From a virus (lineage: Duplodnaviria; Caudoviricetes), in the IMG/VR virus record IMGVR_UViG_3300025924_000001, positions 32,001 through 96,000 of that record: a stretch of DNA of 64,000 bases, one strand, 5' to 3'. The notes beneath the pieces were generated by a model that saw only the letters and a list, made by a program, of their open reading frames with translations, was not told the DNA's origin and made no database searches. Positions 1,199-47,214 of this stretch are shown in pieces. The first letter of the stretch is position 1. The number at the start of each line of letters is the position of its first letter. A program made the position numbers and the translations under genes.

Positions 1199-4100
1199 GT
1201 CGTCCCCCTTCCGAACAGCGACAACCCGTTGGTGGGATTCCGGTTGTTGTACCGAAGCGTCTGCGTCTGGTTCACCGTGGCGAGCCGGCTCTCCGCGATG
1301 ACCGACCCCTCGACGTTGTTGTTGATGATGAGAACGCCACCGCCGGCGCCGGCAGCGAGCCCGGCGAGGCCACTGGGGATCCCGAGGGACCTCGGGTTGA
1401 GGCCGAGGTTGCCGCCGCGGGTGAGCTCCGACGCGATCGCGTTGACCGCGGATCGGATGGCGGGCATGCCGTTCAGCATGCCCATCGCGATGCCGGTGCT
1501 GAGGTGGATGCCGACCTCGTCGGCCATGCGCTTCGACGGTGAGCCGTGCTTGAACGCGTCCTTGAAGCCCTGAATCACGCCGGCCGCGAAGTTCATGATC
1601 TGGTCGTTCAGCCAGCCGGCAGCGTTCAGCATGCCGTGCACGAGGCCCTGAACGATCGCGAAGCCGGTGTTGATGAGCCAGGTGTTCGCGTTGCTCAGCA
1701 GGTTGAGGATCTTCCCGGGAAGGTCGCGGAACCACTTCCAGATGGCGTCGGCCGCCTGGTTGACGCCGTTGAGGAAGCCGGCGATGACCTCCATCGACCG
1801 GGCGAAGAGCCAGTTGCTGGCTCCCGTGAGGAAGTCGTCGATCCTCTTGGGCAGGTCGTTGAACCACTTCCAGAGCTCGAGAGCCTTCTTCTCGATCCCG
1901 TTCAGGAAGCCGTTGATCACGTCCTGGCCGTTCTTGTCGATCCAGTCCTTCGCGGTTGAGGTCGAGTCCTTGATCTTCTTAGGCAGGTCGACGCTGAAGT
2001 ACTTGACGACGGCCTCCGACGCCGACTTGATCCCGTCGATGATCGCCTGGCCGAGCTTGTTGCCCTCGCGCTGAATCGTTCCGACGAGCTCACCGAGCGC
2101 GTAGCCGATCTTGTAGGGCAGGTTGTTGAACGTGTCGATAACCAGCTTGCCGGCGTCGCTCGCCTTTCGCTGCAGCGTCCTCATCGCCTCGTCCCACTTC
2201 GAGCTGAGGCTGCTGCCAAGGCTGTTGAGGGCGTCACTGATCTTCTTCGGAAGACCCTGGGCCCACTGAATGAGGGACAGGCTCAGGTCGCCGAGCTTCT
2301 TCGGCAGGCTGACGAGCCACTCGCCAACCGCGGCCTCGTTCTTCATGAAGTCGGCGAAGCCCTTGCCGGCCTTGTCGAACGCCCACACGAGCCCCTCGAT
2401 CAGCTTGACCGAGATCAGGGTGATCACCTCGAGGAGGGGAACCATCTGCTTGACCAGGTCGGTGACGACCGGGATCAGTGGGGCAAGCGCTGGGATGATC
2501 TGCATCCACGCCTTACCGAGGTCCTCGAGCGCGGGCGACAGCTTCTTGATCATGTCAAGCGCCTCAGCGAGGAGGACCTTGACGAGCTGGGTGAGGGGTG
2601 GCAGCAGCGGCTTGATCGCCTCGACGAACGTCTTCATGTTCGTCCCGAGTTCCTCGCCGAACGCCTTCGCGATGTCGCTGATGAGCGGCAGCAGGGGAAT
2701 GATCGCCTTCGCGATGGCGTCGAGGCCGTCGAACAGTGCGCCGAGCGCCGGTGAGACCGCCGCGAGCACGTCGACGAGCAGCTCGCCGATCACCTTGACG
2801 AGGTCGCGGAACAGGTTAGCGAGCGGGGCCATCATCGGTTCCATGGCCTTGAAGGCCTCACCGATGACGACGACGACCTCCTTGAACGCCTCGCCGATCG
2901 CGTTGTTTCCCGACATGGACTTGAAGGTGCCGTCGAGCAGCTTCAGGAGGTCGATCATCGCCGGCATCATCACGTTGCCGATGCTGATGGCGGTCGCCTC
3001 GAGCTGAGCCTTGAACTTTGCGAACGCGAAGCTGAGGTTGCCCTGGACCTCGGAGAAGCCGAGAACGTCACCGTTCGCGTCCGTCGTCGCCGCACCCACG
3101 GCCTTGATCGCGTTGGTCAGCGAGTCGGCGCCGTCACCGGTTGCCTCCAGGGCCGCCTGCAGGCCGGGTGACGTGCCGATCAGCTTCTTCATCGCCTCGG
3201 GAACGGACTGCCCGACGGCGGCGGCGTTCTTCTCCGCAACCTGTCGCAGGTACTCGAGGGTGCCGGCGAGGCCGTCGGTGCCGAGGTGCTTCTTCACCTC
3301 GTCCTCCGAGGTGCCGAGCTCGGCGAACTCCTTCTTCATCTGCGTCGTGGGTGCGATGATGCTCTTGATCGCCGCGGCGACGTCCTGCGCGGCGCGCTGT
3401 GCGGTGGTGCCGTGGGCGGTCATCGCGGCCTCAACCGAGGCGACGTCGGCGAACGACAGGCCGACCGACGCGGCGATGGGCAGCACGGTGGCGAGGGACT
3501 TCGAGAAGGCGTCGAAGTTGGTCTTACCGAAGGAGATCGCCTCAACCATCTTGCTGGTGATGTCACCCGCGTCGCTGGCGGTGAGGTTGTAGTCCTTCAT
3601 GACCGTGGTGACGGCGTCCGCGACGTGGGACAGGTCGGCGCCCTCGTCCCTCGCGCCCTGCGCCGCGGCCTGCATCACCTTGAGACCATCCGCGGCGTGG
3701 TAGCCGGCGGACTCGATCGGGTACATCGCCTGAGCCATCTCGTTGGCCGTGAAGCCAACCTTCGTGGACATGTCCAGCAGGCCCTGGCTGACCAGGCCCA
3801 CGGCGCTCGACGACTCACCCGCGCTGGTCACGAGCCGGGTCACCGCGGCCTGGAAGTCACCGGCCATCGTGAGGCTCGCGGCACCGACCGCGGCGACCGC
3901 GAGGCCGGCCTTCTCCGCGATGGAACCGATGGAGGCTCCCGCGGCACCGAACGCCTCGCTCGAGCCCGCGGTCTTCGCGGCGGCTCCCTCGGACGCGGCC
4001 GCGGCCGCGTCCTGCGCCGCCGCGGCCGCGTCCGCGGCCTCACCGAGACGCGCGAGGGCGGCTGAGGCCTCGTCGGAGGACAGGACGATGCTCGCCGCGG

Positions 4101-4293
4101 CCTCGTCCATCGCGGCCGCGGCCTCGGTGGCGCCGGCGGTCAGCGCCTCCGAGAAGTCCGCGGCCATGGCCACGGTCTCGGTGATCGCGGCGTCGAGCTC
4201 CTCGAGGGACGCGATCGACGTCTGCAGGCTCTCCACCCACTGAGCCGTGTTGACGATCAGGTCGAGGACCGCGGGTGGAAGCTCCTCAGCCAA
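1195..4293 (-). CDS. Tape measure protein
   Basis: 1032 aa, Ala-rich helical, TP901-type core (AGDFQAAVTRL...), periodic Trp repeats, C-terminal GSPSKRM motif; follows tail chaperones. Confidence 0.92.
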   Translation of the reverse strand: MAEELPPAVLDLIVNTAQWVESLQTSIASLEELDAAITETVAMAADFSEALTAGATEAAAAMDEAAASIVLSSDEASAALARLGEAADAAAAAQDAAAAASEGAAAKTAGSSEAFGAAGASIGSIAEKAGLAVAAVGAASLTMAGDFQAAVTRLVTSAGESSSAVGLVSQGLLDMSTKVGFTANEMAQAMYPIESAGYHAADGLKVMQAAAQGARDEGADLSHVADAVTTVMKDYNLTASDAGDITSKMVEAISFGKTNFDAFSKSLATVLPIAASVGLSFADVASVEAAMTAHGTTAQRAAQDVAAAIKSIIAPTTQMKKEFAELGTSEDEVKKHLGTDGLAGTLEYLRQVAEKNAAAVGQSVPEAMKKLIGTSPGLQAALEATGDGADSLTNAIKAVGAATTDANGDVLGFSEVQGNLSFAFAKFKAQLEATAISIGNVMMPAMIDLLKLLDGTFKSMSGNNAIGEAFKEVVVVIGEAFKAMEPMMAPLANLFRDLVKVIGELLVDVLAAVSPALGALFDGLDAIAKAIIPLLPLISDIAKAFGEELGTNMKTFVEAIKPLLPPLTQLVKVLLAEALDMIKKLSPALEDLGKAWMQIIPALAPLIPVVTDLVKQMVPLLEVITLISVKLIEGLVWAFDKAGKGFADFMKNEAAVGEWLVSLPKKLGDLSLSLIQWAQGLPKKISDALNSLGSSLSSKWDEAMRTLQRKASDAGKLVIDTFNNLPYKIGYALGELVGTIQREGNKLGQAIIDGIKSASEAVVKYFSVDLPKKIKDSTSTAKDWIDKNGQDVINGFLNGIEKKALELWKWFNDLPKRIDDFLTGASNWLFARSMEVIAGFLNGVNQAADAIWKWFRDLPGKILNLLSNANTWLINTGFAIVQGLVHGMLNAAGWLNDQIMNFAAGVIQGFKDAFKHGSPSKRMADEVGIHLSTGIAMGMLNGMPAIRSAVNAIASELTRGGNLGLNPRSLGIPSGLAGLAAGAGGGVLIINNNVEGSVIAESRLATVNQTQTLRYNNRNPTNGLSLFGRGTT

Positions 4294-4711
4294 GGCTCAC
4301 CGCCTCCGAGATGATCTCGAGCGCGACCTGGTACGCCTCCACGGCGGCGAGCTCCCACGCGGGGATGAGGTAGGGACGCGACGGCACCTCGGTCGCGCCA
4401 CCGGGACCGGCGGTGCCGCCCAGCTCCTGGATGCGCGAGTACGCGGTCGTCGCACCGACCTGAACCGTGCCCGGCCCGAGGACCTTCACCTCGATGCTTC
4501 CCGCGAGCCGACCGGTGATCATCGACGGCGGCTCACCGGGCGGGGCGGGGCTCGGCGTTCCCGGTGCGTGCGAGGACCGGCTCAGCTGAGCTCTCGCCTC
4601 GCGCGCCACGGCCTCACCCATCGCCTCCGCGGCCGGCTCGGCGGCGGCGACACCCGCGGTCATGATCAGGCCAAGCGCGTCGATCGCACCCTTCGCGCCG
4701 CTCGTCGCCAC
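4286..4711 (-). CDS. HK97 gp10-like neck/tail-completion protein
   Basis: Motifs TGRLAGSI, YSRIQELGG, PSRPYL. Confidence 0.7.
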   Translation of the reverse strand: MATSGAKGAIDALGLIMTAGVAAAEPAAEAMGEAVAREARAQLSRSSHAPGTPSPAPPGEPPSMITGRLAGSIEVKVLGPGTVQVGATTAYSRIQELGGTAGPGGATEVPSRPYLIPAWELAAVEAYQVALEIISEAVSLG

Positions 4712-14386: not shown

Positions 14387-14670
14387 TCGTCATCCTCCGT
14401 GACGGTGGCTTCACCGCACCTGGGGCACTCGTGGCTCCACGCGTTCCACAGTCGAGCGCACGCGACGCACCAGCGACCGCGCTTGGTTCCGAGGAAGCCG
14501 CGGAAGCCGCCGGCGAACGCGAGGCCGCCCTCGCCGCCGACCTGCTTCTGAACCGCGGTCGCGTGGCGGTCCGAGACCTCGACGCTGCCGCGACTGTTGC
14601 GCGTGTACCGGGTGCCGTCCTCCATGTTGAGGCCGTCGCAGCCCGGCGGGAGGTTGACGCGGACGCTCAC
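14383..14670 (-). CDS. Hypothetical zinc-ribbon protein
   Basis: CxxC...CPRC; coupled ORF. Confidence 0.6.
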   Translation of the reverse strand: MSVRVNLPPGCDGLNMEDGTRYTRNSRGSVEVSDRHATAVQKQVGGEGGLAFAGGFRGFLGTKRGRWCVACARLWNAWSHECPRCGEATVTEDDE

Positions 14671-14891
14671 TCGTCGACCTCATCATCGACGGTGAAGGTC
14701 AGAGTGTACGCCTTGCCGACCTCGAACAGGTTGGCGTCCTTGACGGAGATGTTGACCGACAGCGTGGGGGTCGCGGCGGCCCACGCCTTGTTGCGGCCGT
14801 CGGCGTAGTCGACACCGAACTCGAACGCGGCGCCCTCGCTGCCCCAGATCTTCTTGCTGTTACACTTGACCTTCGCGGTCACCTGAGCCAT
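14667..14891 (-). CDS. Hypothetical protein
   Basis: MAQVTAKVKC... with GAGG RBS. Confidence 0.6.
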   Translation of the reverse strand: MAQVTAKVKCNSKKIWGSEGAAFEFGVDYADGRNKAWAAATPTLSVNISVKDANLFEVGKAYTLTFTVDDEVDE

Positions 14892-14907
14892 CGTCGCCCT
14901 CGATTCG

Positions 14908-15483
14908 CTAAAAGTTGATGTGCTTCGGGTGGCAGTCACCGCGAACCACCCTCACCGGGATCCCGAGGCGCTTGGCGAGACGGTGCATGTTCAGGTCCAC
15001 GTAGGGGTAGTGCCACTCCTTGAGGCCCTCGATCACCGCCGCATCCACGAGTCGCCGCGGTAGGTAGGTGAAGCAGAAGGTGAACCAGTCGGGGTCGTCG
15101 ACGTCGGTCTGCCAGAGCCTGATCGTGTCCTGTCCGGTGGCTCCCGGTGACGGCTCCTTGCGGTGACCCCAGACCCAACTCGGCAGGTGGGTCGAGCGCG
15201 GCCACAGCTTCGCGGGGGCGGTCCACACCGAGGTGGTGTCTCGACCCACGTGAGAGATCATCGCTCCCAGGTCGGTGGGCTCGATCGCGACGTCCGAGTC
15301 GAGCAGCAGCATGCCGACGTCCGCGGGGGTCGCCATCTGTCGCCACGCGGAGGCGAGCACGAGGCCCTTGCGCCCCTTGGGGTGCGCCGGCTCCGGGTTG
15401 ACCTCGATGACGTGAAACGGGTGCTCGACGCTGGGGATCGTGCGGCCTCGCCACGCGACCTTGACGCAGATGAGATTGACCAC
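14908..15483 (-). CDS. Putative GT-A-fold protein
   Basis: Hydrophobic strand followed by DSD (DxD), C-terminal His; start uncertain. Confidence 0.45.
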   Translation of the reverse strand: MVNLICVKVAWRGRTIPSVEHPFHVIEVNPEPAHPKGRKGLVLASAWRQMATPADVGMLLLDSDVAIEPTDLGAMISHVGRDTTSVWTAPAKLWPRSTHLPSWVWGHRKEPSPGATGQDTIRLWQTDVDDPDWFTFCFTYLPRRLVDAAVIEGLKEWHYPYVDLNMHRLAKRLGIPVRVVRGDCHPKHINF

Positions 15484-42027: not shown

Positions 42028-43272
42028 GTGAACCTGTCCGACCTGGAGGCCATCCTGGGCGTCCTCAACCCGTGGCTGATCGGCCTCGCGTACGGCGCGC
42101 TGGGACTGCTCGCGCTGTGGTTCATCCGCTCCACGGTGAGGTCGCTCGCGGCGTGGACGCACCGTGCGCGCTCGGTCGAGACCACGGTCGCCGGCACCCG
42201 GGTGTTCTACGTCGCGGCCCTCGCCGGCATGCTCGTGTCCCTGAACACGAGCTGGAACTACTTCGGCTCGGTGCTCGGCGTGATTGACGTCGTGGAGCGC
42301 GGCGTCATGTTCTTCGTGCTCGAGCTCGCGCAGGTTGCCTGCGGCTGGGGGATGCGTTCCTCCATCCGCGAGCACGGCAAGCCCGGCCCGGCTCGACTGA
42401 TCGCGTGGTTCCTCTGCGCGATCTCCGCGTACATGGCGTGGAGCCTGAGCGGCGTCTGGGTCGGCGTCGCGCGAGTGGTGCTCGGACCCGTCCTGAGCCT
42501 CGTGATGCTTCACCTCGCCCTGGGCATCGAGATCCGCAGCCTGCGGGTCAAGACCGACTCAGTCTGGGTCCGCGTCGCTCGAGAGCTGCGGGAGCGCCTG
42601 CTCGCGTTCCTGGGGTTGAGCGACGAGGAGCGTGACGCGAGGACGATCGCTCGTCAGCGAGCCCTCCTGAAGGCGACCCGCATCCGCATGACCGGTGACG
42701 GCTCGGAGCGGTCGCAGCGACGCTTCATCGAGCAGCTCGCGCGCGCGGACGTCGCGAACGACGCCGAGGCGCTCGAGAGCTTCGTCAACTCGATGAAGCT
42801 CGCGGCGAACGCGAGTGCGGTGTTTGACCTGCGGTACCCGATGCCATTTCAGGTGACACCTGATGGTGCCAACGAGGTGGACGTGGCACCTGACACTGAC
42901 ACTGACACTGACACCGAGGAAGTGACACCCACCGAGGTTGACACCGAGGAAGTGGCACCTGACACCTGGCTATCGGGTGACACTGACACTGACACTGACA
43001 CTGACACTGACACTGACACTGACACTGACACTGACACTGACACTGACACTGACACTGACACTGACACTGACACTGGCAAAGTGCCGACGGCACCGGTGTC
43101 ACTGGCACCTCGAAGTGGCAGGGCTCAGGCTGAGGTCGACACCATCCTCGAGCTGATTCGAGACCAGGGCGTGGACGCGATCTCCATCGAGGTCGTCAAG
43201 ACGAAGCTTGGTCTCAAGCACTCAACCGCGGCGCGTCGCCTTCGCGCCGCGAGGGATCAGCTGGCATCCTGA
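42028..43272 (+). CDS. Multi-TM protein with (DT)n linker and C-terminal HTH (DUF2637/Spd-like)
   Basis: About five hydrophobic segments, acidic repeat, ISIEVVKTKLGLKHSTAARRLRAAR. Confidence 0.65.
   Translation: MNLSDLEAILGVLNPWLIGLAYGALGLLALWFIRSTVRSLAAWTHRARSVETTVAGTRVFYVAALAGMLVSLNTSWNYFGSVLGVIDVVERGVMFFVLELAQVACGWGMRSSIREHGKPGPARLIAWFLCAISAYMAWSLSGVWVGVARVVLGPVLSLVMLHLALGIEIRSLRVKTDSVWVRVARELRERLLAFLGLSDEERDARTIARQRALLKATRIRMTGDGSERSQRRFIEQLARADVANDAEALESFVNSMKLAANASAVFDLRYPMPFQVTPDGANEVDVAPDTDTDTDTEEVTPTEVDTEEVAPDTWLSGDTDTDTDTDTDTDTDTDTDTDTDTDTDTDTDTGKVPTAPVSLAPRSGRAQAEVDTILELIRDQGVDAISIEVVKTKLGLKHSTAARRLRAARDQLAS
42979..43074. repeat. (GACACT)16 perfect hexamer tandem repeat
   Basis: Counted directly. 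Confidence 0.95.
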
Positions 43273-43277
43273 CACCG

Positions 43278-43312
43278 GGTGCCACCTGCCACGATCAGTG
43301 GCAGGTGGCACC
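43278..43312. terminator. Hairpin built from TGCCA/TGGCA motifs
   Basis: GGTGCCACCTGCCAC / GTGGCAGGTGGCACC. Confidence 0.6.
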
Positions 43313-43383
43313 TCAGCGCGTGGCACCGACGACGTGACTTCCACCTTCATCAGTTGATGTGATATGGTGGTACCACCGAGGAG

Positions 43384-44952
43384 GTGATGACGGTGAGCGA
43401 GGAGCTCGAGAACGACGAGACGAGGGTGTTCGCGACCGCGGCCCCGGTTGAGGCGTCTGACCTGGTCGAGGACTCGACCGCCTCAATCAAGGAGCCTGCG
43501 ACCGCGTCCCAAGAGACCGGGATCGACAGGCCACCGGGTCCCGCGACGACCGTCAAGGCTCGGTCGAGCGCCGGTCGCCCCACGTGGCACCTGTCCCTGA
43601 CGCTGGGCCTGGTGATCGCCCTGGTCGGCGGCATCCTGCTGTGGATGCAGTCACCGGAGCTGGCCCTGCTGGTCGCCGGCGGCCTGATCATCCTGGTTGG
43701 TCTCGCGCTCGCCCTGTGGTACCTCTTCGGTTCCGGTACGCTGAGCCGTCGGGGTGCCACGGCTCGGCGAGATGCCAACCGCGGTGGCACGCCGGGTGCC
43801 AACCGCGGTGGCAGTGCCAGTGACACCGGTCGAGGTAGTGCCAACCGCCGTGGCAGTGCCAACCGTGAGGATGGCACCAGCCGACGGCGACGCGGTGACA
43901 CCGGTGATCGCGGTGACACCCGATCGCGGCGACCGGGACGCGGTGACACCGACCGTGGTGCCACGGGTGCCAACCGGCGTGCCAATCGAGATGGCACTAC
44001 CAACCGGGGTGCCAACGGCAATCGGAACGGTGCCAACTCAGGTGCCAACGGTAATCGGAACGGCGGTGGCAAACCGGCGGCACCGGGTGCCACGAGGCCG
44101 AGCCAGCCGGCCGGTGGCAAGCCGCCGACAGACCGGAAGCCGAACGCGAACGGCGGTCGGCAACCCCTCGTCGGCGACCAGGCGGCGAGTCGGCCCGACC
44201 GTCTCACGGCGGCTGACCGGCGAGCTCAGCGGCGGCGAGCCGCCGGGTACCCGCAGTCCAGGGTCATCACGTGCGGCGGTCGGCCTCCGCTGGCCGCCGT
44301 GAAGACGACCAAGAAGACGGATGAGACGGCCGACGCTGATAAGAAGCGGGTAAGGTTGAAGCCTCTGCGGTGGCGCAGTCGGTCCGGTAAGCTGCCGGTC
44401 CCGAAGCCGCCGCGAGCGACGACGACGAGCGCCCCACCCAAGGCGGCACCGGTGAGACCGACGACGACGACGAAGCCCCAGGTCAAGCCCGACGAGAGGG
44501 TTGAGTGGCCGAACGTGGACCACGACCAGGTGGCGAGCCAGCCGCCGCCGCGGATCACCGTCCCCCGTCGAGCGGTGAGGCTTGAGCCGCGGTACCACGG
44601 TCGCGCGGGTGAGCCGAACTGGCCGACGACCGACCCCGACCGACCGACACCGACACCGAGCATTCCCGACCAACGGAACAGGAGAGGTACCGTGAGCAAC
44701 CCCGATCTGCTGACCCGGGCCGCCCGGGAGCAGCACTTCAGCGACTCCGCGACCGCCGCGGTGAGCGCCGCACAGGCGAAGGACACCCAGGCGAACCAGC
44801 TACTGGCCCTGGCCGGCGAGCTGGATGGCGTGGAGGGCATGGAGCGGGTTCAGGAGGAGCACTACCGGGCCGCGGCCGCGGCCGCGCACGACGCGGAGGT
44901 TCGCCGGGGGAAGGCCGCGATCTACGGCTTCCTGAGCGAAAACCCCGCCTGA
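43384..44952 (+). CDS. Two-TM protein with long low-complexity region (plasmid transfer/spread-like)
   Basis: Two TM segments, ANR/GDT repeats, helical C-terminus. Confidence 0.6.
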   Translation: MMTVSEELENDETRVFATAAPVEASDLVEDSTASIKEPATASQETGIDRPPGPATTVKARSSAGRPTWHLSLTLGLVIALVGGILLWMQSPELALLVAGGLIILVGLALALWYLFGSGTLSRRGATARRDANRGGTPGANRGGSASDTGRGSANRRGSANREDGTSRRRRGDTGDRGDTRSRRPGRGDTDRGATGANRRANRDGTTNRGANGNRNGANSGANGNRNGGGKPAAPGATRPSQPAGGKPPTDRKPNANGGRQPLVGDQAASRPDRLTAADRRAQRRRAAGYPQSRVITCGGRPPLAAVKTTKKTDETADADKKRVRLKPLRWRSRSGKLPVPKPPRATTTSAPPKAAPVRPTTTTKPQVKPDERVEWPNVDHDQVASQPPPRITVPRRAVRLEPRYHGRAGEPNWPTTDPDRPTPTPSIPDQRNRRGTVSNPDLLTRAAREQHFSDSATAAVSAAQAKDTQANQLLALAGELDGVEGMERVQEEHYRAAAAAAHDAEVRRGKAAIYGFLSENPA

Positions 44953-44962
44953 TTTCACCCTC

Positions 44963-44997
44963 GCTCGACCCCCGACCAGGTAGGTCGGGGGTCGAGC
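44963..44997. terminator. Hairpin
   Basis: GCTCGACCCCCGACC / GGTCGGGGGTCGAGC. Confidence 0.6.
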
Positions 44998-45027
44998 CCG
45001 TTCCGGAACGAGGAAGAGGAACCGATC

Positions 45028-47214
45028 GTGGTCCCCCACAAGGTGTTCTTGCCGGTCGCGGGCTCCCTGCTGACGCTCGCCCTGAGCCTCGGCCTGCTCG
45101 TGACGCGGGTCTCGACGCCGCTCGCGGTCACGGGCACCGTGGTCGCGACCGGGCTCGCCGTGCTGCTGGGCGAGCGTCTGGTTCACGTCGCGGACTCGCT
45201 GTCGCACCTCACCCTGGACGCGAAGAGCCTCGCGTTTCGCCTGGTAGCGGTCGCGGTGGTGGGCGATGGGACCGTCGCGGTAACCCTCGAGATCGTGGGC
45301 TTGACCGAGCTGCCCCGCGCCCTGCTGTGGCAGCTCGGCCTCACCGCGGCGCAGGTTGTCGTCGCGGTGATCGCGGACGAGTACCTGTCGCGGGTACGGC
45401 CGCGGCTACGGCAGGTGTCGTGGGAGCGCCGACAGGTTCGAGAGCGCGACCAGGCGGTCGCGCGACGGGACGCGGAGATCGAGGTGGGCGCCGGCGAGGC
45501 CCTGGTCAAGCGCGAGTCGGTGACCCCGGCTCCCACCGAGAGCCACGACATCCGGGTCATGCGCCTGGCGCTCAAGAAGGTGAAGCTCGGCTGGCTGGTG
45601 ATCCTGGACCGGCGGCCCCTGAGCGACGCTCGGGGCCTCTTCGGCATCCAGTTCGACGTCCAGATCACGGCCGAGGCGATGAGCCACAAGGGGCGGCGAA
45701 CGCTGCCGACGGAGGCGGCGGAGCCGATCGCCGTGGCCCTCTCGGAGCTGCTCAACCAGGTGATCGAGAGGAGGTGGGTGGGGATCCAGCGACTTCCCCG
45801 GGCCGGTGGGTACGCGATCACCGTGACCACGCAGGACGTGATGGCCCGGGTCTACCCCTTCGAGGACGAGCTGGAATGGGCGAGCGTTCAGGACCTGGTC
45901 CTGATCGGGTACGGCCTGGACGCTCAGCCGGTTTACCTGCTGCTGCGGCAGCACGGCCAGTTCCTGGGGAAGAGCCGGTCGGGCAAGTCCTCGCTGATCA
46001 ACTGCGTGCTCGCGTACCTGACCCGTTGCCGCGACGCCGTGGTCTGGATCTGCGGCACCGAGAAGCTCTACGACATGCTGGCCGGCTGGCTGGAGATCTA
46101 CCTCGACGAGGACGAGGAGATGCCCTTCGACTGGGTCATGGCCGGCCCGCAGGACACCGCGGAGTGCCTCGCGGCCCTGATGCGCGTGGCTCGGTACCGA
46201 CAGTCGCTGCGGCTCAGCCAGCGGCTGAACCTGCCGGACATCATCTGCGTTCTCGACGAGGCCTCGTTCGCGCTGCGCAACACGACGATCACGGCCGAGT
46301 TCGACGGCCGTGACCTGACGATGTCGACGCTCTGCGGCATGATCACGCAGGGCGCGGGCTCGGCGGGCTGCTGGCTCGAGTACTCCACGCAGCGGGACAC
46401 GAACGACCAGCTCGGTCCCGCCGGCGGCGACATCCAGGCGCAGACGGGGTTTACCGCGGCGTTCGGCAGCCAGGACAACCTGTCCCTGGGGCGGCAGCTC
46501 GGGGACTTCAAGCTGCCGCCGCCGGCGCACAAGGGTGAGTTCTACCTGAAGAACGACGCCGCGGAGGCTCCCTACCCGGTGCTGACGAAGGGCCGCTACC
46601 TGCAGGAGGATGACCCGAGCAAGCCTCGGCTGCACGACGGGTTGACGGTGAGCTCGGTGTCGTGGTCGCGTCGATCGTTCAAGGTCCACCTCGACGAGGG
46701 GTCGGCGCGCGCCGCGGGGGAGCTCTACGTGGCGCGGCCGACGCGGGTCACGGAGCGGTTCCTGGACTACCTCGCGAGCCCCACGTCCGTGGCTGCGCCG
46801 CTGGACATCGTGGGTGCCCGTCGGGCCGTGGCCCCCGCGCCGGCGCTCGACGCGGTGGACGCGGACGCCGCTGACCTCGCGCAACGAATGGGGTTCGACT
46901 TCGCGTCCCTTCCCGGCGCGCAGAAGGAGGCCTACCGGGAGGTGGTACGAGAGCTGCAGACGGCCACGGAGCCGCGAGCGGACCCCGCTCAGGCAGCTTC
47001 CAGTGGGCCGCCGCGGTCCGGTCGGGCGGAGCAGGTGGAGTGGGTGCTGCGCGAGGCGGGGACGCCGCTCACGTCGCGGGAGATCCTCGACGAGCTCCGG
47101 TCCGTCGGCGTCGAGGTCAAGAGCGAGGGGTCGGTGCACAACCTGCTTGGTAGGCTCGTGAGTGACGGGGTCATCGTGAAGGTGAACGGTCGCTTCCAGC
47201 TCCCGGACTGGTAA
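45028..47214 (+). CDS. FtsK/SpoIIIE-family (TraB-like) DNA translocase
   Basis: N-terminal TMs, Walker A GKSRSGKS, Walker B ICVLDE, STQR motif, C-terminal winged HTH. Confidence 0.78.
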   Translation: MVPHKVFLPVAGSLLTLALSLGLLVTRVSTPLAVTGTVVATGLAVLLGERLVHVADSLSHLTLDAKSLAFRLVAVAVVGDGTVAVTLEIVGLTELPRALLWQLGLTAAQVVVAVIADEYLSRVRPRLRQVSWERRQVRERDQAVARRDAEIEVGAGEALVKRESVTPAPTESHDIRVMRLALKKVKLGWLVILDRRPLSDARGLFGIQFDVQITAEAMSHKGRRTLPTEAAEPIAVALSELLNQVIERRWVGIQRLPRAGGYAITVTTQDVMARVYPFEDELEWASVQDLVLIGYGLDAQPVYLLLRQHGQFLGKSRSGKSSLINCVLAYLTRCRDAVVWICGTEKLYDMLAGWLEIYLDEDEEMPFDWVMAGPQDTAECLAALMRVARYRQSLRLSQRLNLPDIICVLDEASFALRNTTITAEFDGRDLTMSTLCGMITQGAGSAGCWLEYSTQRDTNDQLGPAGGDIQAQTGFTAAFGSQDNLSLGRQLGDFKLPPPAHKGEFYLKNDAAEAPYPVLTKGRYLQEDDPSKPRLHDGLTVSSVSWSRRSFKVHLDEGSARAAGELYVARPTRVTERFLDYLASPTSVAAPLDIVGARRAVAPAPALDAVDADAADLAQRMGFDFASLPGAQKEAYREVVRELQTATEPRADPAQAASSGPPRSGRAEQVEWVLREAGTPLTSREILDELRSVGVEVKSEGSVHNLLGRLVSDGVIVKVNGRFQLPDW

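What the first reader, a model, noticed from the sequence alone, without database searches (positions are those of the whole stretch)
42840..44095. DNA-level TGRCA(C) motif array spanning two genes and their intergenic region
Seen: dozens of TGACAC/TGGCAC/GTGCCA/GTGTCA copies in both orientations, including (GACACT)16, the intergenic palindrome at 43278-43312 and GGTGCCAAC repeats at about 43750-44095. They encode different peptides (DT, VAP, GAN, GGT) with atypical codons, so the constraint appears to be on DNA. Inference: a cis-acting binding array (clt/TRS- or centromere-like) hidden in coding sequence and bound by the adjacent HTH or TraB wHTH.
Basis: partly seen in the sequence, partly recalled or inferred. 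Interest (0 to 1): 0.75.

Follow-up and report, generated by a model that had tools for sequence, protein, structure and literature searches.

The report
Phage DNA-pump docking-word array
A 112-kb soil phage has written about fifty copies of the 7-letter DNA word TG(G/A)CACC into two membrane-protein genes and the gap between them, just upstream of a plasmid-type DNA pump gene; related phages keep an array at the same spot with a different word, so it is most likely a protein docking site like the transfer sites of Streptomyces plasmids.

Summary
53 of the window's 91 TGRCAC/GTGYCA copies lie in 42840-44095. This is the strongest local hexamer array on the whole 111,864-bp phage genome.

The word is TG(G/A)CACC. 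It occurs in both orientations and three codon phases, and it builds a perfect 15-bp-arm intergenic palindrome. Keeping the peptides and redrawing codons from the phage's own usage predicts about 2 copies where 45 stand, so the constraint is on DNA.

Two smaller clusters of the same word lie elsewhere on the genome and recur at the same places in a relative. Relatives keep an array at the same spot with another word: GAGACC, CGGGACG, CCGGACG or CGGACA. Arrays also flank related pump genes in Saccharomonospora phage PIS 136 and Amycolatopsis plasmid pAmyja1.

The downstream gene folds as an FtsK/TraB-type translocase with a winged helix. TGACACC is the repeat that the pump TraA footprints in the transfer locus of plasmid pWTY27.

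Best reading: a clt-like docking array for this membrane translocation module. Whether the pump's winged helix or the upstream DUF2637 protein's helix-turn-helix reads it is unresolved, and binding is untested. A centromere reading finds no ParA.

This scan has noted the same kind of array on other DNA (at least eight other notes).

The parts
42028..43272 (+). Gene 1 (414 aa): N-terminal multi-helix membrane domain of the DUF2637 kind, disordered acidic linker (residues ~269-362), C-terminal three-helix HTH
   Evidence: Translation. AF2 model m3cedb2a47202: helices to residue 266, pLDDT below 50 for residues 269-362, pLDDT above 90 for 362-414. Syntenic distant homologs hit Pfam DUF2637 above threshold. 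P0001 itself has no Pfam hit.
42842..43120 (.). Array part 1, inside the linker-coding part of gene 1: about 35 TGRCA(C) copies, nearly all forward, including the perfect tandem (GACACT)16 at 42978-43075
   Evidence: Recoding test. This protein segment is only 30% identical to L001 and 12% to L003, against 67% and 65% for the membrane domain.
43111..43269 (+). Coding region of the C-terminal HTH of gene 1 (residues 362-414), candidate reader
   Evidence: AF2 pLDDT above 90, helices 362-380, 387-394 and 398-413. Local Foldseek alignments of 43-57 columns (rmsd about 1.6-4 A, none significant) to TetR, AsnC/Lrp, DeoR and sigma region 4 DNA-binding domains.
43262..43327 (.). Intergenic cluster of 7 word copies, with a perfect palindrome at 43278-43312 made of two copies facing two copies
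   Evidence: The equivalent spacers of L001 (three TGCCAC facing three TGGCA) and L003 (GGTCTC-AT-GAGACC palindrome plus three more copies) are built from each lineage's own word.
43384..44952 (+). Gene 2 (522 aa): membrane helix, basic Gly/Arg/Asn/Thr-rich low-complexity middle, conserved helical C-terminus
   Evidence: Translation. Homologs in L001 and L003. No Pfam or NCBIfam hit.
43755..44094 (.). Array part 2, inside the low-complexity middle of gene 2: 24 copies of the 5-base core TGRCA, 13 reverse and 11 forward; one further copy at 43585
   Evidence: Recoding test: 19 hexamer copies observed against 1.4 expected.
45028..47214 (+). Gene 3 (728 aa): TraB/FtsK-type membrane DNA translocase
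   Evidence: AF2 model mab9a820d33cf, pLDDT 76: N-terminal long helices 4-149, an alpha/beta ATPase core, Walker A GKSRSGKS. Best Foldseek hits are the FtsK motor domains 2iut and 6t8o (E 7e-10 to 1e-9, probability 1.0), then the conjugation coupling protein TcpA.
47023..47199 (+). [quoted passage not shown]
   Evidence: AF2: helices 666-677, 683-692 and 700-712, then strands 717-719 and 722-724. The third helix is SEGSVHNLLGRLV.

Best explanation
The stretch is a clt-like docking array. It holds about fifty copies of the asymmetric word TG(G/A)CACC, laid over the parts of two membrane-protein genes that encode disordered, fast-evolving peptide, and over the spacer between them. The array marks phage DNA for the membrane DNA-translocation module encoded on the spot: a DUF2637-type membrane protein with an HTH tail, a basic membrane protein, and a TraB/FtsK-type pump with a winged helix. 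I take the pump's winged helix as the slightly more likely reader. In that case many flexibly tethered winged helices would bind the dense array and concentrate pump hexamers on this DNA, as TraB does at the repeats of a plasmid clt. The two small satellite clusters would act as clt-like secondary sites.

Shown here: the DNA-level constraint; the change of word between lineages at a fixed place; the fold and domain order of the pump; and the identity of the word with an experimentally footprinted clt repeat.

For: 1. The constraint is on DNA. Observed counts exceed peptide-preserving recoding by 10- to 40-fold only inside the array. An unbiased maximum-excess hexamer test gives 27.3 against a null maximum of 10.6. 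The word occurs in three phases and both orientations, and the non-coding spacer holds 7 copies.

2. The place is kept and the word changes. L001 uses TGRCAC, L003 GAGACC, L006 CGGGACG, L007 CCGGACG and L019 CGGACA, each above its recoding null.

3. Arrays can be non-coding and lie beside the pump gene. In plasmid pAmyja1, 36 of the locus's 48 CGGGGA copies (many as CGGGGAC) fall within 1.2 kb of unannotated DNA right after the TraB-like gene. In L004, CGTCTC arrays lie downstream of it.

4. The pump has the TraB plan of membrane helices, FtsK-type motor and winged helix.

5. TGACACC is the four-fold direct repeat of the pWTY27 clt that purified TraA protects from DNase I (PMC3583192). TraB of pSVH1 reads 8-bp repeats through helix 3 of its winged helix and also binds clt-like clusters elsewhere on the chromosome.

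6. Satellite clusters of the same word lie at contig 2837-3228 and 103323-103392; the latter is five direct repeats in 50 bp plus one inverted copy. They recur at matching places in relative G002, and cluster A there sits in otherwise unalignable DNA. Relative G001 has a satellite cluster of its own word inside its dCMP deaminase gene.
Against: No binding data exist.

The main array has mixed orientation and irregular spacing and lies upstream of the pump gene inside other genes. Described clt loci have 3-9 mostly direct repeats, at or next to the tra gene in pWTY27 and close to korB in pIJ101.

The pump's recognition helix differs between the window (SVHNLL) and L001 (SVRNLL) although they share the word. 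P0012 has the window's helix but comes from a contig whose gene-1 linker is of the Glu-Thr type seen with GAGACC; that pairing rests on matching contig lengths and the word is inferred from peptides only.

Arrays were not detected beside five ~40%-identical pump genes in bacterial genomes or in L005.

The wHTH of pWTY27 TraA could not be compared, because the record is not in the collections.
Confidence: 0.45

Rival explanations
1. The same array is read by the C-terminal HTH of the DUF2637-type membrane protein whose own gene carries it. This would be an sps/SpdA-like arrangement. Many membrane-anchored copies, each on a long flexible acidic linker, would bind the irregular array and tether this part of the phage genome to the membrane beside the pump, or stabilise its inheritance. 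The pump would then need no sequence-specific loading here.
For: In seven lineages (window, L001, L003, L006, L007, L019, PIS 136) the array overlaps the 3' half of this gene. Mixed orientation and irregular spacing suit independently tethered monomers. The first residue of the recognition helix is H, Q or F in TGRCAC-type proteins and R or K in Glu-Thr/GAGACC-type ones, including the outgroup L004. In the inferred P0012/P0056 pair the HTH, not the pump helix, follows the linker type. There is precedent for a plasmid spread protein binding a site inside its own gene: SpdA2 and sps of pIJ101 (PMC4170104). The HTH is modelled at pLDDT above 90.
Against: The H/Q/F versus R/K contrast is one event on the tree. 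In L004 and pAmyja1 the arrays lie after the pump gene, while the gene-1 linker there carries none or one. The only experimental binder of TGACACC is a TraB-family protein. The HTH fold matches are not significant.
Confidence: 0.3
2. The array is an operator or silencing array. A phage or host transcription regulator coats the 1.25 kb and the satellites to hold the potentially toxic pump module off, as the TraR/KorA kil-kor control does on plasmids. On this reading the function is regulation, not DNA docking for transport.
For: The intergenic palindrome lies just before a conserved leader of gene 2. traB-traR pairs form kil-kor systems on plasmids. A GntR-family gene lies beside the module in pAmyja1.
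Against: Fifty sites spread through coding DNA far exceed any operator need. No sigma-70-type promoter-like site was found in 42700-45100. No regulator gene was identified next to the module in the window.
Confidence: 0.08
3. The array is a functionless by-product. Replication slippage and local duplication in DNA that encodes tolerant low-complexity peptide multiplied whatever unit was there.
For: The perfect (GACACT)16 tandem and imperfect 12- and 18-bp tandems exist. The linkers are hypervariable in length. L023 shows a one-orientation, one-frame repeat that looks like this. The recoding null cannot exclude copying of codons by duplication.
Against: Duplication cannot make inverted copies, yet gene 2 has 8 reverse and 6 forward 7-mers. 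Copies have unrelated flanks. The same word fills the non-coding spacer as a palindrome and forms satellite clusters tens of kb away in unrelated sequence. Non-coding arrays exist in pAmyja1. Seven lineages each show an array with their own word.
Confidence: 0.07
4. The array is a set of replication-origin iterons or a partition centromere.
For: Iterons inside a coding region are known (lambda ori in gene O; own knowledge). Actinophage parS sites are arrays of short repeats (own knowledge).
Against: No ParA-type ATPase is found in the complete genome. Cumulative GC skew turns at about 24-26 kb and about 98 kb, not at 75 kb. No replication initiator gene was seen next to the array.
Confidence: 0.05

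Closest known systems
[quoted passage not shown]
   Same: The word is identical: four 7-bp repeats of TGACACC, protected by the purified TraB-family translocase. The locus also holds inverted repeats, overlaps a coding region (16 bp of traA) and lies beside the pump gene.
   Different: pWTY27 has four direct copies in 175 bp of mostly non-coding DNA after the gene. Here there are about fifty copies in both orientations across 1.25 kb, inside two upstream genes and their spacer, plus two satellite clusters, on a virion-type phage genome. The two pumps could not be compared because the pWTY27 record was not available.
clt / TRS of pSVH1 (8-bp repeats read by helix 3 of the TraB winged helix; clt-like clusters on the chromosome) and clt of pJV1 (nine 9-bp direct repeats)
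   Same: These are short asymmetric words in clusters, read by a C-terminal winged helix on a membrane FtsK-type hexamer. Secondary clusters elsewhere on the replicon are also bound. The words differ between elements.
   Different: Copy number is 5-10 times lower, there is no overlay on long coding stretches, and the elements are plasmids, not phages. The pump here is so diverged that Pfam FtsK_SpoIIIE does not score it; only the fold does.
sps, the palindrome bound by SpdA2 inside the spdA2 gene of pIJ101 (PMC4170104)
   Same: A DNA site for a plasmid spread or stability protein is hidden in that protein's own coding sequence. Copies form palindromes.
   Different: sps is one to three copies of a conserved 12-bp palindrome shared by many plasmids. 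Here the word is asymmetric, lineage-specific and present in dozens of copies. Gene 1 is a DUF2637-type membrane protein, not a SpdA homolog.
KOPS / SRS words read by the gamma winged helix of FtsK / SpoIIIE (own knowledge)
   Same: Seven- to eight-base asymmetric words are read by a winged helix flexibly attached to the same motor fold.
   Different: KOPS are dispersed and strand-polarised over a whole chromosome to steer the motor. Here the words are concentrated in three clusters and are not polarised.

Membership tests
clt locus of actinomycete conjugative elements | Cluster of short (5-9 bp) repeated words | tested here: met
   28 TGRCACC copies plus 16 TGACACT in 1.26 kb; Markov simulation maximum 6.
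clt locus of actinomycete conjugative elements | Lies beside a gene for a TraB/FtsK-type membrane translocase with a C-terminal winged helix | tested here: met
   The array ends 930 bp before gene 3. FtsK motor fold at E 7e-10, N-terminal membrane helices, three helices plus a hairpin at the C-terminus.
clt locus of actinomycete conjugative elements | Mostly direct repeats in a compact (50-200 bp) stretch at or next to the tra gene | tested here: not met
   The main array is 1.25 kb, of mixed orientation, and lies inside two upstream genes. Only satellite cluster C (contig 103344-103392) has five direct repeats in 50 bp.
clt locus of actinomycete conjugative elements | Bound specifically by the cognate Tra protein | not testable with these tools
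   Only indirect evidence: the same word is footprinted by TraA of pWTY27.
clt locus of actinomycete conjugative elements | Required in cis for conjugal transfer of the replicon | not testable with these tools
   The phage is uncultured and there is no genetic system.
clt locus of actinomycete conjugative elements | Carried by a plasmid or an integrating conjugative element | tested here: not met
   The replicon is a complete virus record of 111,864 bp with direct terminal repeats. Earlier notes describe portal and other virion genes; I did not re-test those.
sps / SpdA system | Site inside the binding protein's own gene | tested here: met
   About 35 copies lie in the linker-coding part of gene 1, which ends in an HTH.
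sps / SpdA system | Conserved 12-bp palindrome CGTCACGTGACG and a SpdA-family protein | tested here: not met
   The word is TGRCACC and differs between lineages. Gene 1 belongs with DUF2637 proteins.
ParABS centromere | Partner ParA-type ATPase on the replicon | tested here: not met
   PF13614 and PF01656 have no match in the complete genome, while all 14 control genomes matched.
FtsK/SpoIIIE/TraB translocases (gene 3) | Pfam FtsK_SpoIIIE at the gathering score | tested here: not met
   No Pfam or NCBIfam family at E<=0.01. A relative (L006) scores 16.5 bits against a cut-off of 24.
FtsK/SpoIIIE/TraB translocases (gene 3) | Motor-domain fold with a Walker A loop | tested here: met
   Foldseek hits 2iut, 6t8o, 6t8b and 2ius at probability 1.0; GKSRSGKS is invariant in 15 homologs.
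DUF2637 (gene 1) | Pfam PF10935 at the gathering score | tested here: inconclusive
   P0001 itself has no hit. Syntenic gene-1 proteins of L007, L019 and L023 score 37, 24.8 and 29.1 bits against a cut-off of 22.8. One sequence homolog of P0001 is named a DUF2637 domain-containing protein.

The most novel reading that the evidence does not exclude
Tailed actinophages and phage-plasmids carry a plasmid-type double-stranded-DNA pump together with a private 'address label', and the word evolves like an incompatibility or specificity code. On this reading the label lets the pump or its membrane partner pick out phage DNA and move or anchor it between hyphal compartments or cells without virions. 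Writing the label into disordered-linker codons of the module's own genes keeps label and reader genetically inseparable.
Probability: 0.2. Interest if true: 0.85.

Novelty: new variant of a known kind. Interest (0 to 1): 0.62.

Why it matters
If the array is a docking site, it is a clear natural case of a second code laid over protein-coding DNA. The peptide is free to vary (12-30% identity between relatives) while the DNA word is kept and is even swapped wholesale between lineages.

It would also tie a conjugation-type DNA pump to a virion-forming phage through a recognisable cis site. That makes the question of what such pumps do in phages directly testable, because the word, the two candidate readers and natural specificity variants (TGRCACC, GAGACC, CGGGACG, CCGGACG, CGGACA, GGAACC, CGGGGAC) are now in hand.

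Practically, such arrays explain odd codon usage and 'low-complexity' genes in actinophage annotation. They also offer a simple signature for finding these modules.

Tried and rejected
The contigs behind the graded homologs P0004-P0019, including the informative P0012/P0056 pair, could therefore not be read.
- The pWTY27 record GU226194 is not in the plasmid collection, so its TraA winged helix could not be compared.

Searches that found little:
- A single-protein scan of viral contigs found nothing; the alignment-based scan did.
- Megablast of the module against plasmids gave no match.
- The profile of the pump against PDB sequences gave only insignificant hits; the fold search was needed.
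- The search with gene 2 returned only four homologs, because low-complexity words swamped the candidate list.
- Bacterial-genome relatives (Amycolatopsis, Kutzneria plasmid, Stackebrandtia, Nocardioides) and L005 showed no array by my scan.

Tests and ideas that failed:
- A statistic requiring one exact hexamer in both orientations was confounded by common GC-rich hexamers and was dropped. It was replaced by the maximum-excess test.
- I considered that the true site is the 9-bp palindrome GGTGNCACC. Rejected: only 6 of its 18 contig copies are in the array, whereas the asymmetric 7-mer has 28 of 65.
- The apparent array of L023 (GGCCAAG) is nearly all one orientation and one frame. I do not count it as a DNA-level array.
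- Covariation of the word with either recognition helix could not separate the two readers.
- Origin reading: GC skew gives no turn at the array.
- Promoter/terminator scan: no sigma-70-type promoter-like site was found, and the palindrome was not among the terminator-like sites listed; it is followed by no run of T.
- TGGCAC also resembles the -24 element of sigma-54 promoters. Dismissed, because actinobacteria lack sigma-54 (own knowledge) and the word occurs on both strands.
Full report
**What is there**

The window is bases 32001-96000 of a single 111,864-bp contig, which the collection classes as a complete virus record with direct terminal repeats. Three plus-strand genes fill 42028-47214.

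- Gene 1 (42028-43272) encodes membrane helices, a long acidic stretch with (Asp-Thr)n, and a short helical C-terminus.
- Gene 2 (43384-44952) encodes one membrane segment, a basic Gly/Arg/Asn/Thr-rich middle and a helical C-terminus.
- Gene 3 (45028-47214) encodes N-terminal hydrophobic helices, a GKSRSGKS loop and a C-terminal helical domain.

None of the three scores in Pfam, and NCBIfam gives only spurious Ser-Asp repeat matches.

TGRCAC and GTGYCA occur 91 times in the window, and 53 of these lie in 42840-44095.

Aligning all copies gives the word TG(G/A)CACC. C follows the core in 80% and then 67% of array copies, against 37% and 45% elsewhere on the contig.

Of 65 copies of that 7-mer on the contig, 28 are in the array, and none of these is in the perfect tandem. 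Third-order Markov simulations never gave more than 6 per 1260 bp. A scan of every hexamer over the whole contig ranks this array first.

**The constraint is on DNA**

I kept the peptides of both genes and redrew each codon from the usage of 60 other genes of the same phage. Results:

| Segment | Expected copies | Observed copies |
|---|---|---|
| Gene-1 linker, 42838-42975 | 0.35 | 11 |
| DT tandem | 0.32 | 15 |
| Gene-2 middle, 43732-44100 | 1.4 | 19 |

The remaining parts of both genes match expectation. The codons that make the word are rare in this phage: ACT 2%, ACA 2%, GCA 4%, CCT 5% and GGT 18%.

The word sits in three codon phases and both orientations and spells nine different tripeptides. 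Gene 2 holds 6 forward and 8 reverse 7-mers. The non-coding spacer holds seven copies, four of which form the palindrome.

The array lies on the least conserved protein segments. The gene-1 linker is 30% identical to L001 and 12% to L003, against 67% and 65% for the membrane domain. The gene-2 middle is 42% and 17% identical, against 65% and 42% for its N-terminus. AlphaFold models the linker (residues 269-362) as disordered.

**Satellites**

The same word forms two smaller clusters elsewhere on the contig.

- Cluster A is at contig 2837-3228, with 15 core copies, beside an HNH-like ORF.
- Cluster C is at contig 103323-103392, with one inverted copy followed by five direct copies spaced 12, 9, 12 and 9 bp.

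Relative G002 (the record of L001, 111,341 bp) has its main array at 75.3-76.3 kb and satellites at 1.0-2.3 kb and 101.0-101.1 kb, which are the same three places. Around cluster A the flanks align at 76-81% identity, but the segment that holds the cluster does not align at all; both versions are nonetheless full of the word.

**Relatives change the word, not the place**

Homologs of gene 3 form a graded series from 87% to about 30% identity. Alignment-based scans fetched 7 viral and 16 metagenomic loci.

| Locus | Word | Detail |
|---|---|---|
| L001 (62% identical) | TGRCAC | (Ser-Asp)n tandem in place of (Asp-Thr)n; spacer with three copies facing three |
| L003 (56%) | GAGACC/GGTCTC | In the gene-1 linker (as Glu-Thr), in five spacer copies including a perfect palindrome, and in gene 2 (as Glu-Thr forward and Arg-Ser-Arg or Gly-Leu reverse) |
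| L006 | CGGGACG | Often as the palindrome GGGACGTCCC |
| L007 | CCGGACG | |
| L019 | CGGACA | |

Because I chose each word after seeing it, I also ran an unbiased test: the largest excess of any hexamer over the recoded mean, compared with the same statistic in recoded sequences. The window, L001, L003, L006, L007, L019 and L023 exceed their nulls, and L005 does not. On inspection the L023 repeat is nearly all one orientation and one frame, so I discount it.

G001, the record of L003, has a satellite cluster of GAGACC inside its dCMP deaminase gene and the next ORF. This is ordinary, not low-complexity, coding sequence.

**Arrays need not be coding**

- In the L004 lineage, CGTCTC/GAGACG arrays lie downstream of the pump gene, largely outside ORFs.
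- In plasmid pAmyja1 of Amycolatopsis japonica DSM 44213, 36 of the locus's 48 CGGGGA copies (many as CGGGGAC, both orientations) fall within 1.2 kb of unannotated DNA right after the TraB-like gene, while the gene-1 homolog upstream carries one.
- In plasmid pGBA129-24a of Actinoalloteichus, CCGTCC/CGGACG copies fill a gene-2-like region upstream.
- In the cultured Saccharomonospora phage PIS 136, 40 of 62 GGAACC copies fall in 1.2 kb, in and after a DUF2637-like, HTH-tailed ORF that diverges from its annotated FtsK/SpoIIIE gene.
- Five bacterial-genome relatives at about 40% identity showed no array by my scan. The feature is therefore frequent but not universal.

**The proteins**

With a 15-sequence alignment, gene 3 folds at mean pLDDT 76. 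The model has long N-terminal helices, an ATPase core and a C-terminal three-helix-plus-hairpin domain. Its best structural matches are FtsK motor domains (E 7e-10 to 1e-9, probability 1.0), then the conjugation coupling protein TcpA and the type VII ATPases. This is the TraB plan.

Gene 1's C-terminal 52 residues fold with pLDDT above 90 into three helices. They align locally, but not significantly, with TetR, AsnC, DeoR and sigma region 4 DNA-binding domains. Its distant syntenic counterparts are DUF2637 proteins by Pfam's own cut-off. Its sequence homologs abound in Pseudonocardiales and mycobacterial genomes and plasmids. I found no published function for DUF2637.

**What is known**

- TraB-family pumps of Streptomyces plasmids assemble on a cis-acting locus of transfer made of short repeats, which they read with helix 3 of a C-terminal winged helix. 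They also bind clt-like clusters elsewhere.
- The clt of pWTY27 contains four direct repeats of TGACACC. Purified TraA shifts the DNA and protects all four (PMC3583192). That is one of the two forms of the word here. I estimate by rough reckoning, not by test, that an exact match to one of the few known clt words by chance is of the order of 1 in 100.
- SpdA2 of pIJ101 binds a palindrome inside its own gene (PMC4170104). This is the precedent for a site hidden in the binder's own coding sequence.
- I found no paper describing such arrays in phages, within the limits of the held library.

**Which domain reads the word?**

For the pump:
- The pWTY27 match.
- The arrays directly after the pump gene in L004 and pAmyja1.
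- The clt-like five direct repeats of cluster C.
- The shared helix AVYNLL in L003 and L004, which share the core GAGAC although the proteins are only 40% identical.

For the gene-1 HTH:
- The array sits in that gene in seven lineages.
- The spacing and orientation are irregular.
- Its recognition helix starts with H, Q or F in TGRCAC-type proteins and with R or K in Glu-Thr/GAGACC-type ones, including L004.
- P0012 carries the window's pump helix but seems to pair with a Glu-Thr-type gene 1. That pairing is inferred from equal contig lengths, and the word from peptides.

Each contrast amounts to one or two events on one tree, so I cannot separate the readers. I put the pump at 0.45 and the HTH at 0.30.

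**Other readings**

- Slippage alone cannot give inverted copies, spacer palindromes, satellites in unrelated DNA or non-coding arrays.
- A centromere lacks its ParA.
- The GC skew gives no sign of an origin here.
- An operator role for the palindrome in front of gene 2 remains possible as an added function.

**Earlier notes of this scan**

After I had found the satellites, the notebook of the scan showed that the same stretch had been noted as 'recurring 28 kb away'. At least eight other genomes carry notes of word arrays in DUF2637-like, Spd or TraB genes of actinophages and phage-plasmids, with follow-ups split between the two readers. These are unverified AI notes. They agree with what I measured, and they prompted me to weigh the gene-1 HTH more seriously. 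I do not count them as evidence.

**Verdict**

- I class the feature as a new variant of a known kind: a clt-type recognition array that is about ten times larger than described ones, mixed in orientation, overlaid on coding sequence and carried by a tailed phage.

Noticed in passing
window 3371-4571: Second-highest local hexamer excess on the contig: CGCGGC, 28 copies in 1.2 kb (542 on the contig). It may be a low-complexity coding stretch.
   Followed up: no
window 43340-43392; L001 5370-5411: A ~50-nt leader before gene 2 (TCATCAGTTGATGTGATA...ACCACCGAGGAGGTGATGACGGTG) is almost identical in the 62%-related phage, although the surrounding spacer differs. It is a candidate promoter/leader directly after the palindrome.
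   Followed up: partly
contig 2681-3248 (outside the window, L024): Satellite cluster A lies beside an HNH-endonuclease-like ORF (minus strand, 2681-2968). It sits in a segment that does not align with relative G002 although both flanks do (76-81% identity).
   Followed up: partly
contig 103323-103392 (outside the window, L025 2824-2893): Satellite cluster C consists of one inverted and five direct TGRCACC copies spaced 12, 9, 12 and 9 bp, inside the small-gene cassette region noted by others. Its coding status is unclear. G002 has only an inverted pair plus a hairpin at the matching place.
   Followed up: partly
L004 8915-9025: Immediately after the TraB-like stop codon, (ACTCAC)n and (GTGAGT)n runs face each other across a GC-rich spacer. 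This is a second kind of repeat, distinct from the CGTCTC arrays further on.
   Followed up: no
L031 (Saccharomonospora phage PIS 136, JX006077) 1395-2790: A GGAACC/GGTTCC array lies in and after a minus-strand DUF2637-like, HTH-tailed ORF (2073-3539). The deposited annotation has overlapping ORFs PIS_044 and PIS_045 here.
   Followed up: partly
L030/L037 (plasmid pAmyja1, NZ_CP008954): The 92.5-kb 'plasmid' carries a GH25 lysozyme and a LamG-like jellyroll gene next to the TraB-like module, plus a GntR regulator upstream. It may be a phage-plasmid.
   Followed up: no
L026 2618-3115 (G001 14617-15114): The relative's dCMP deaminase gene (HAE and PCxxC motifs intact) carries a dense cluster of that phage's word GAGACC/GGTCTC, several copies as inverted pairs. 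The homologous gene in this contig (10858-11322) has no cluster.
   Followed up: partly
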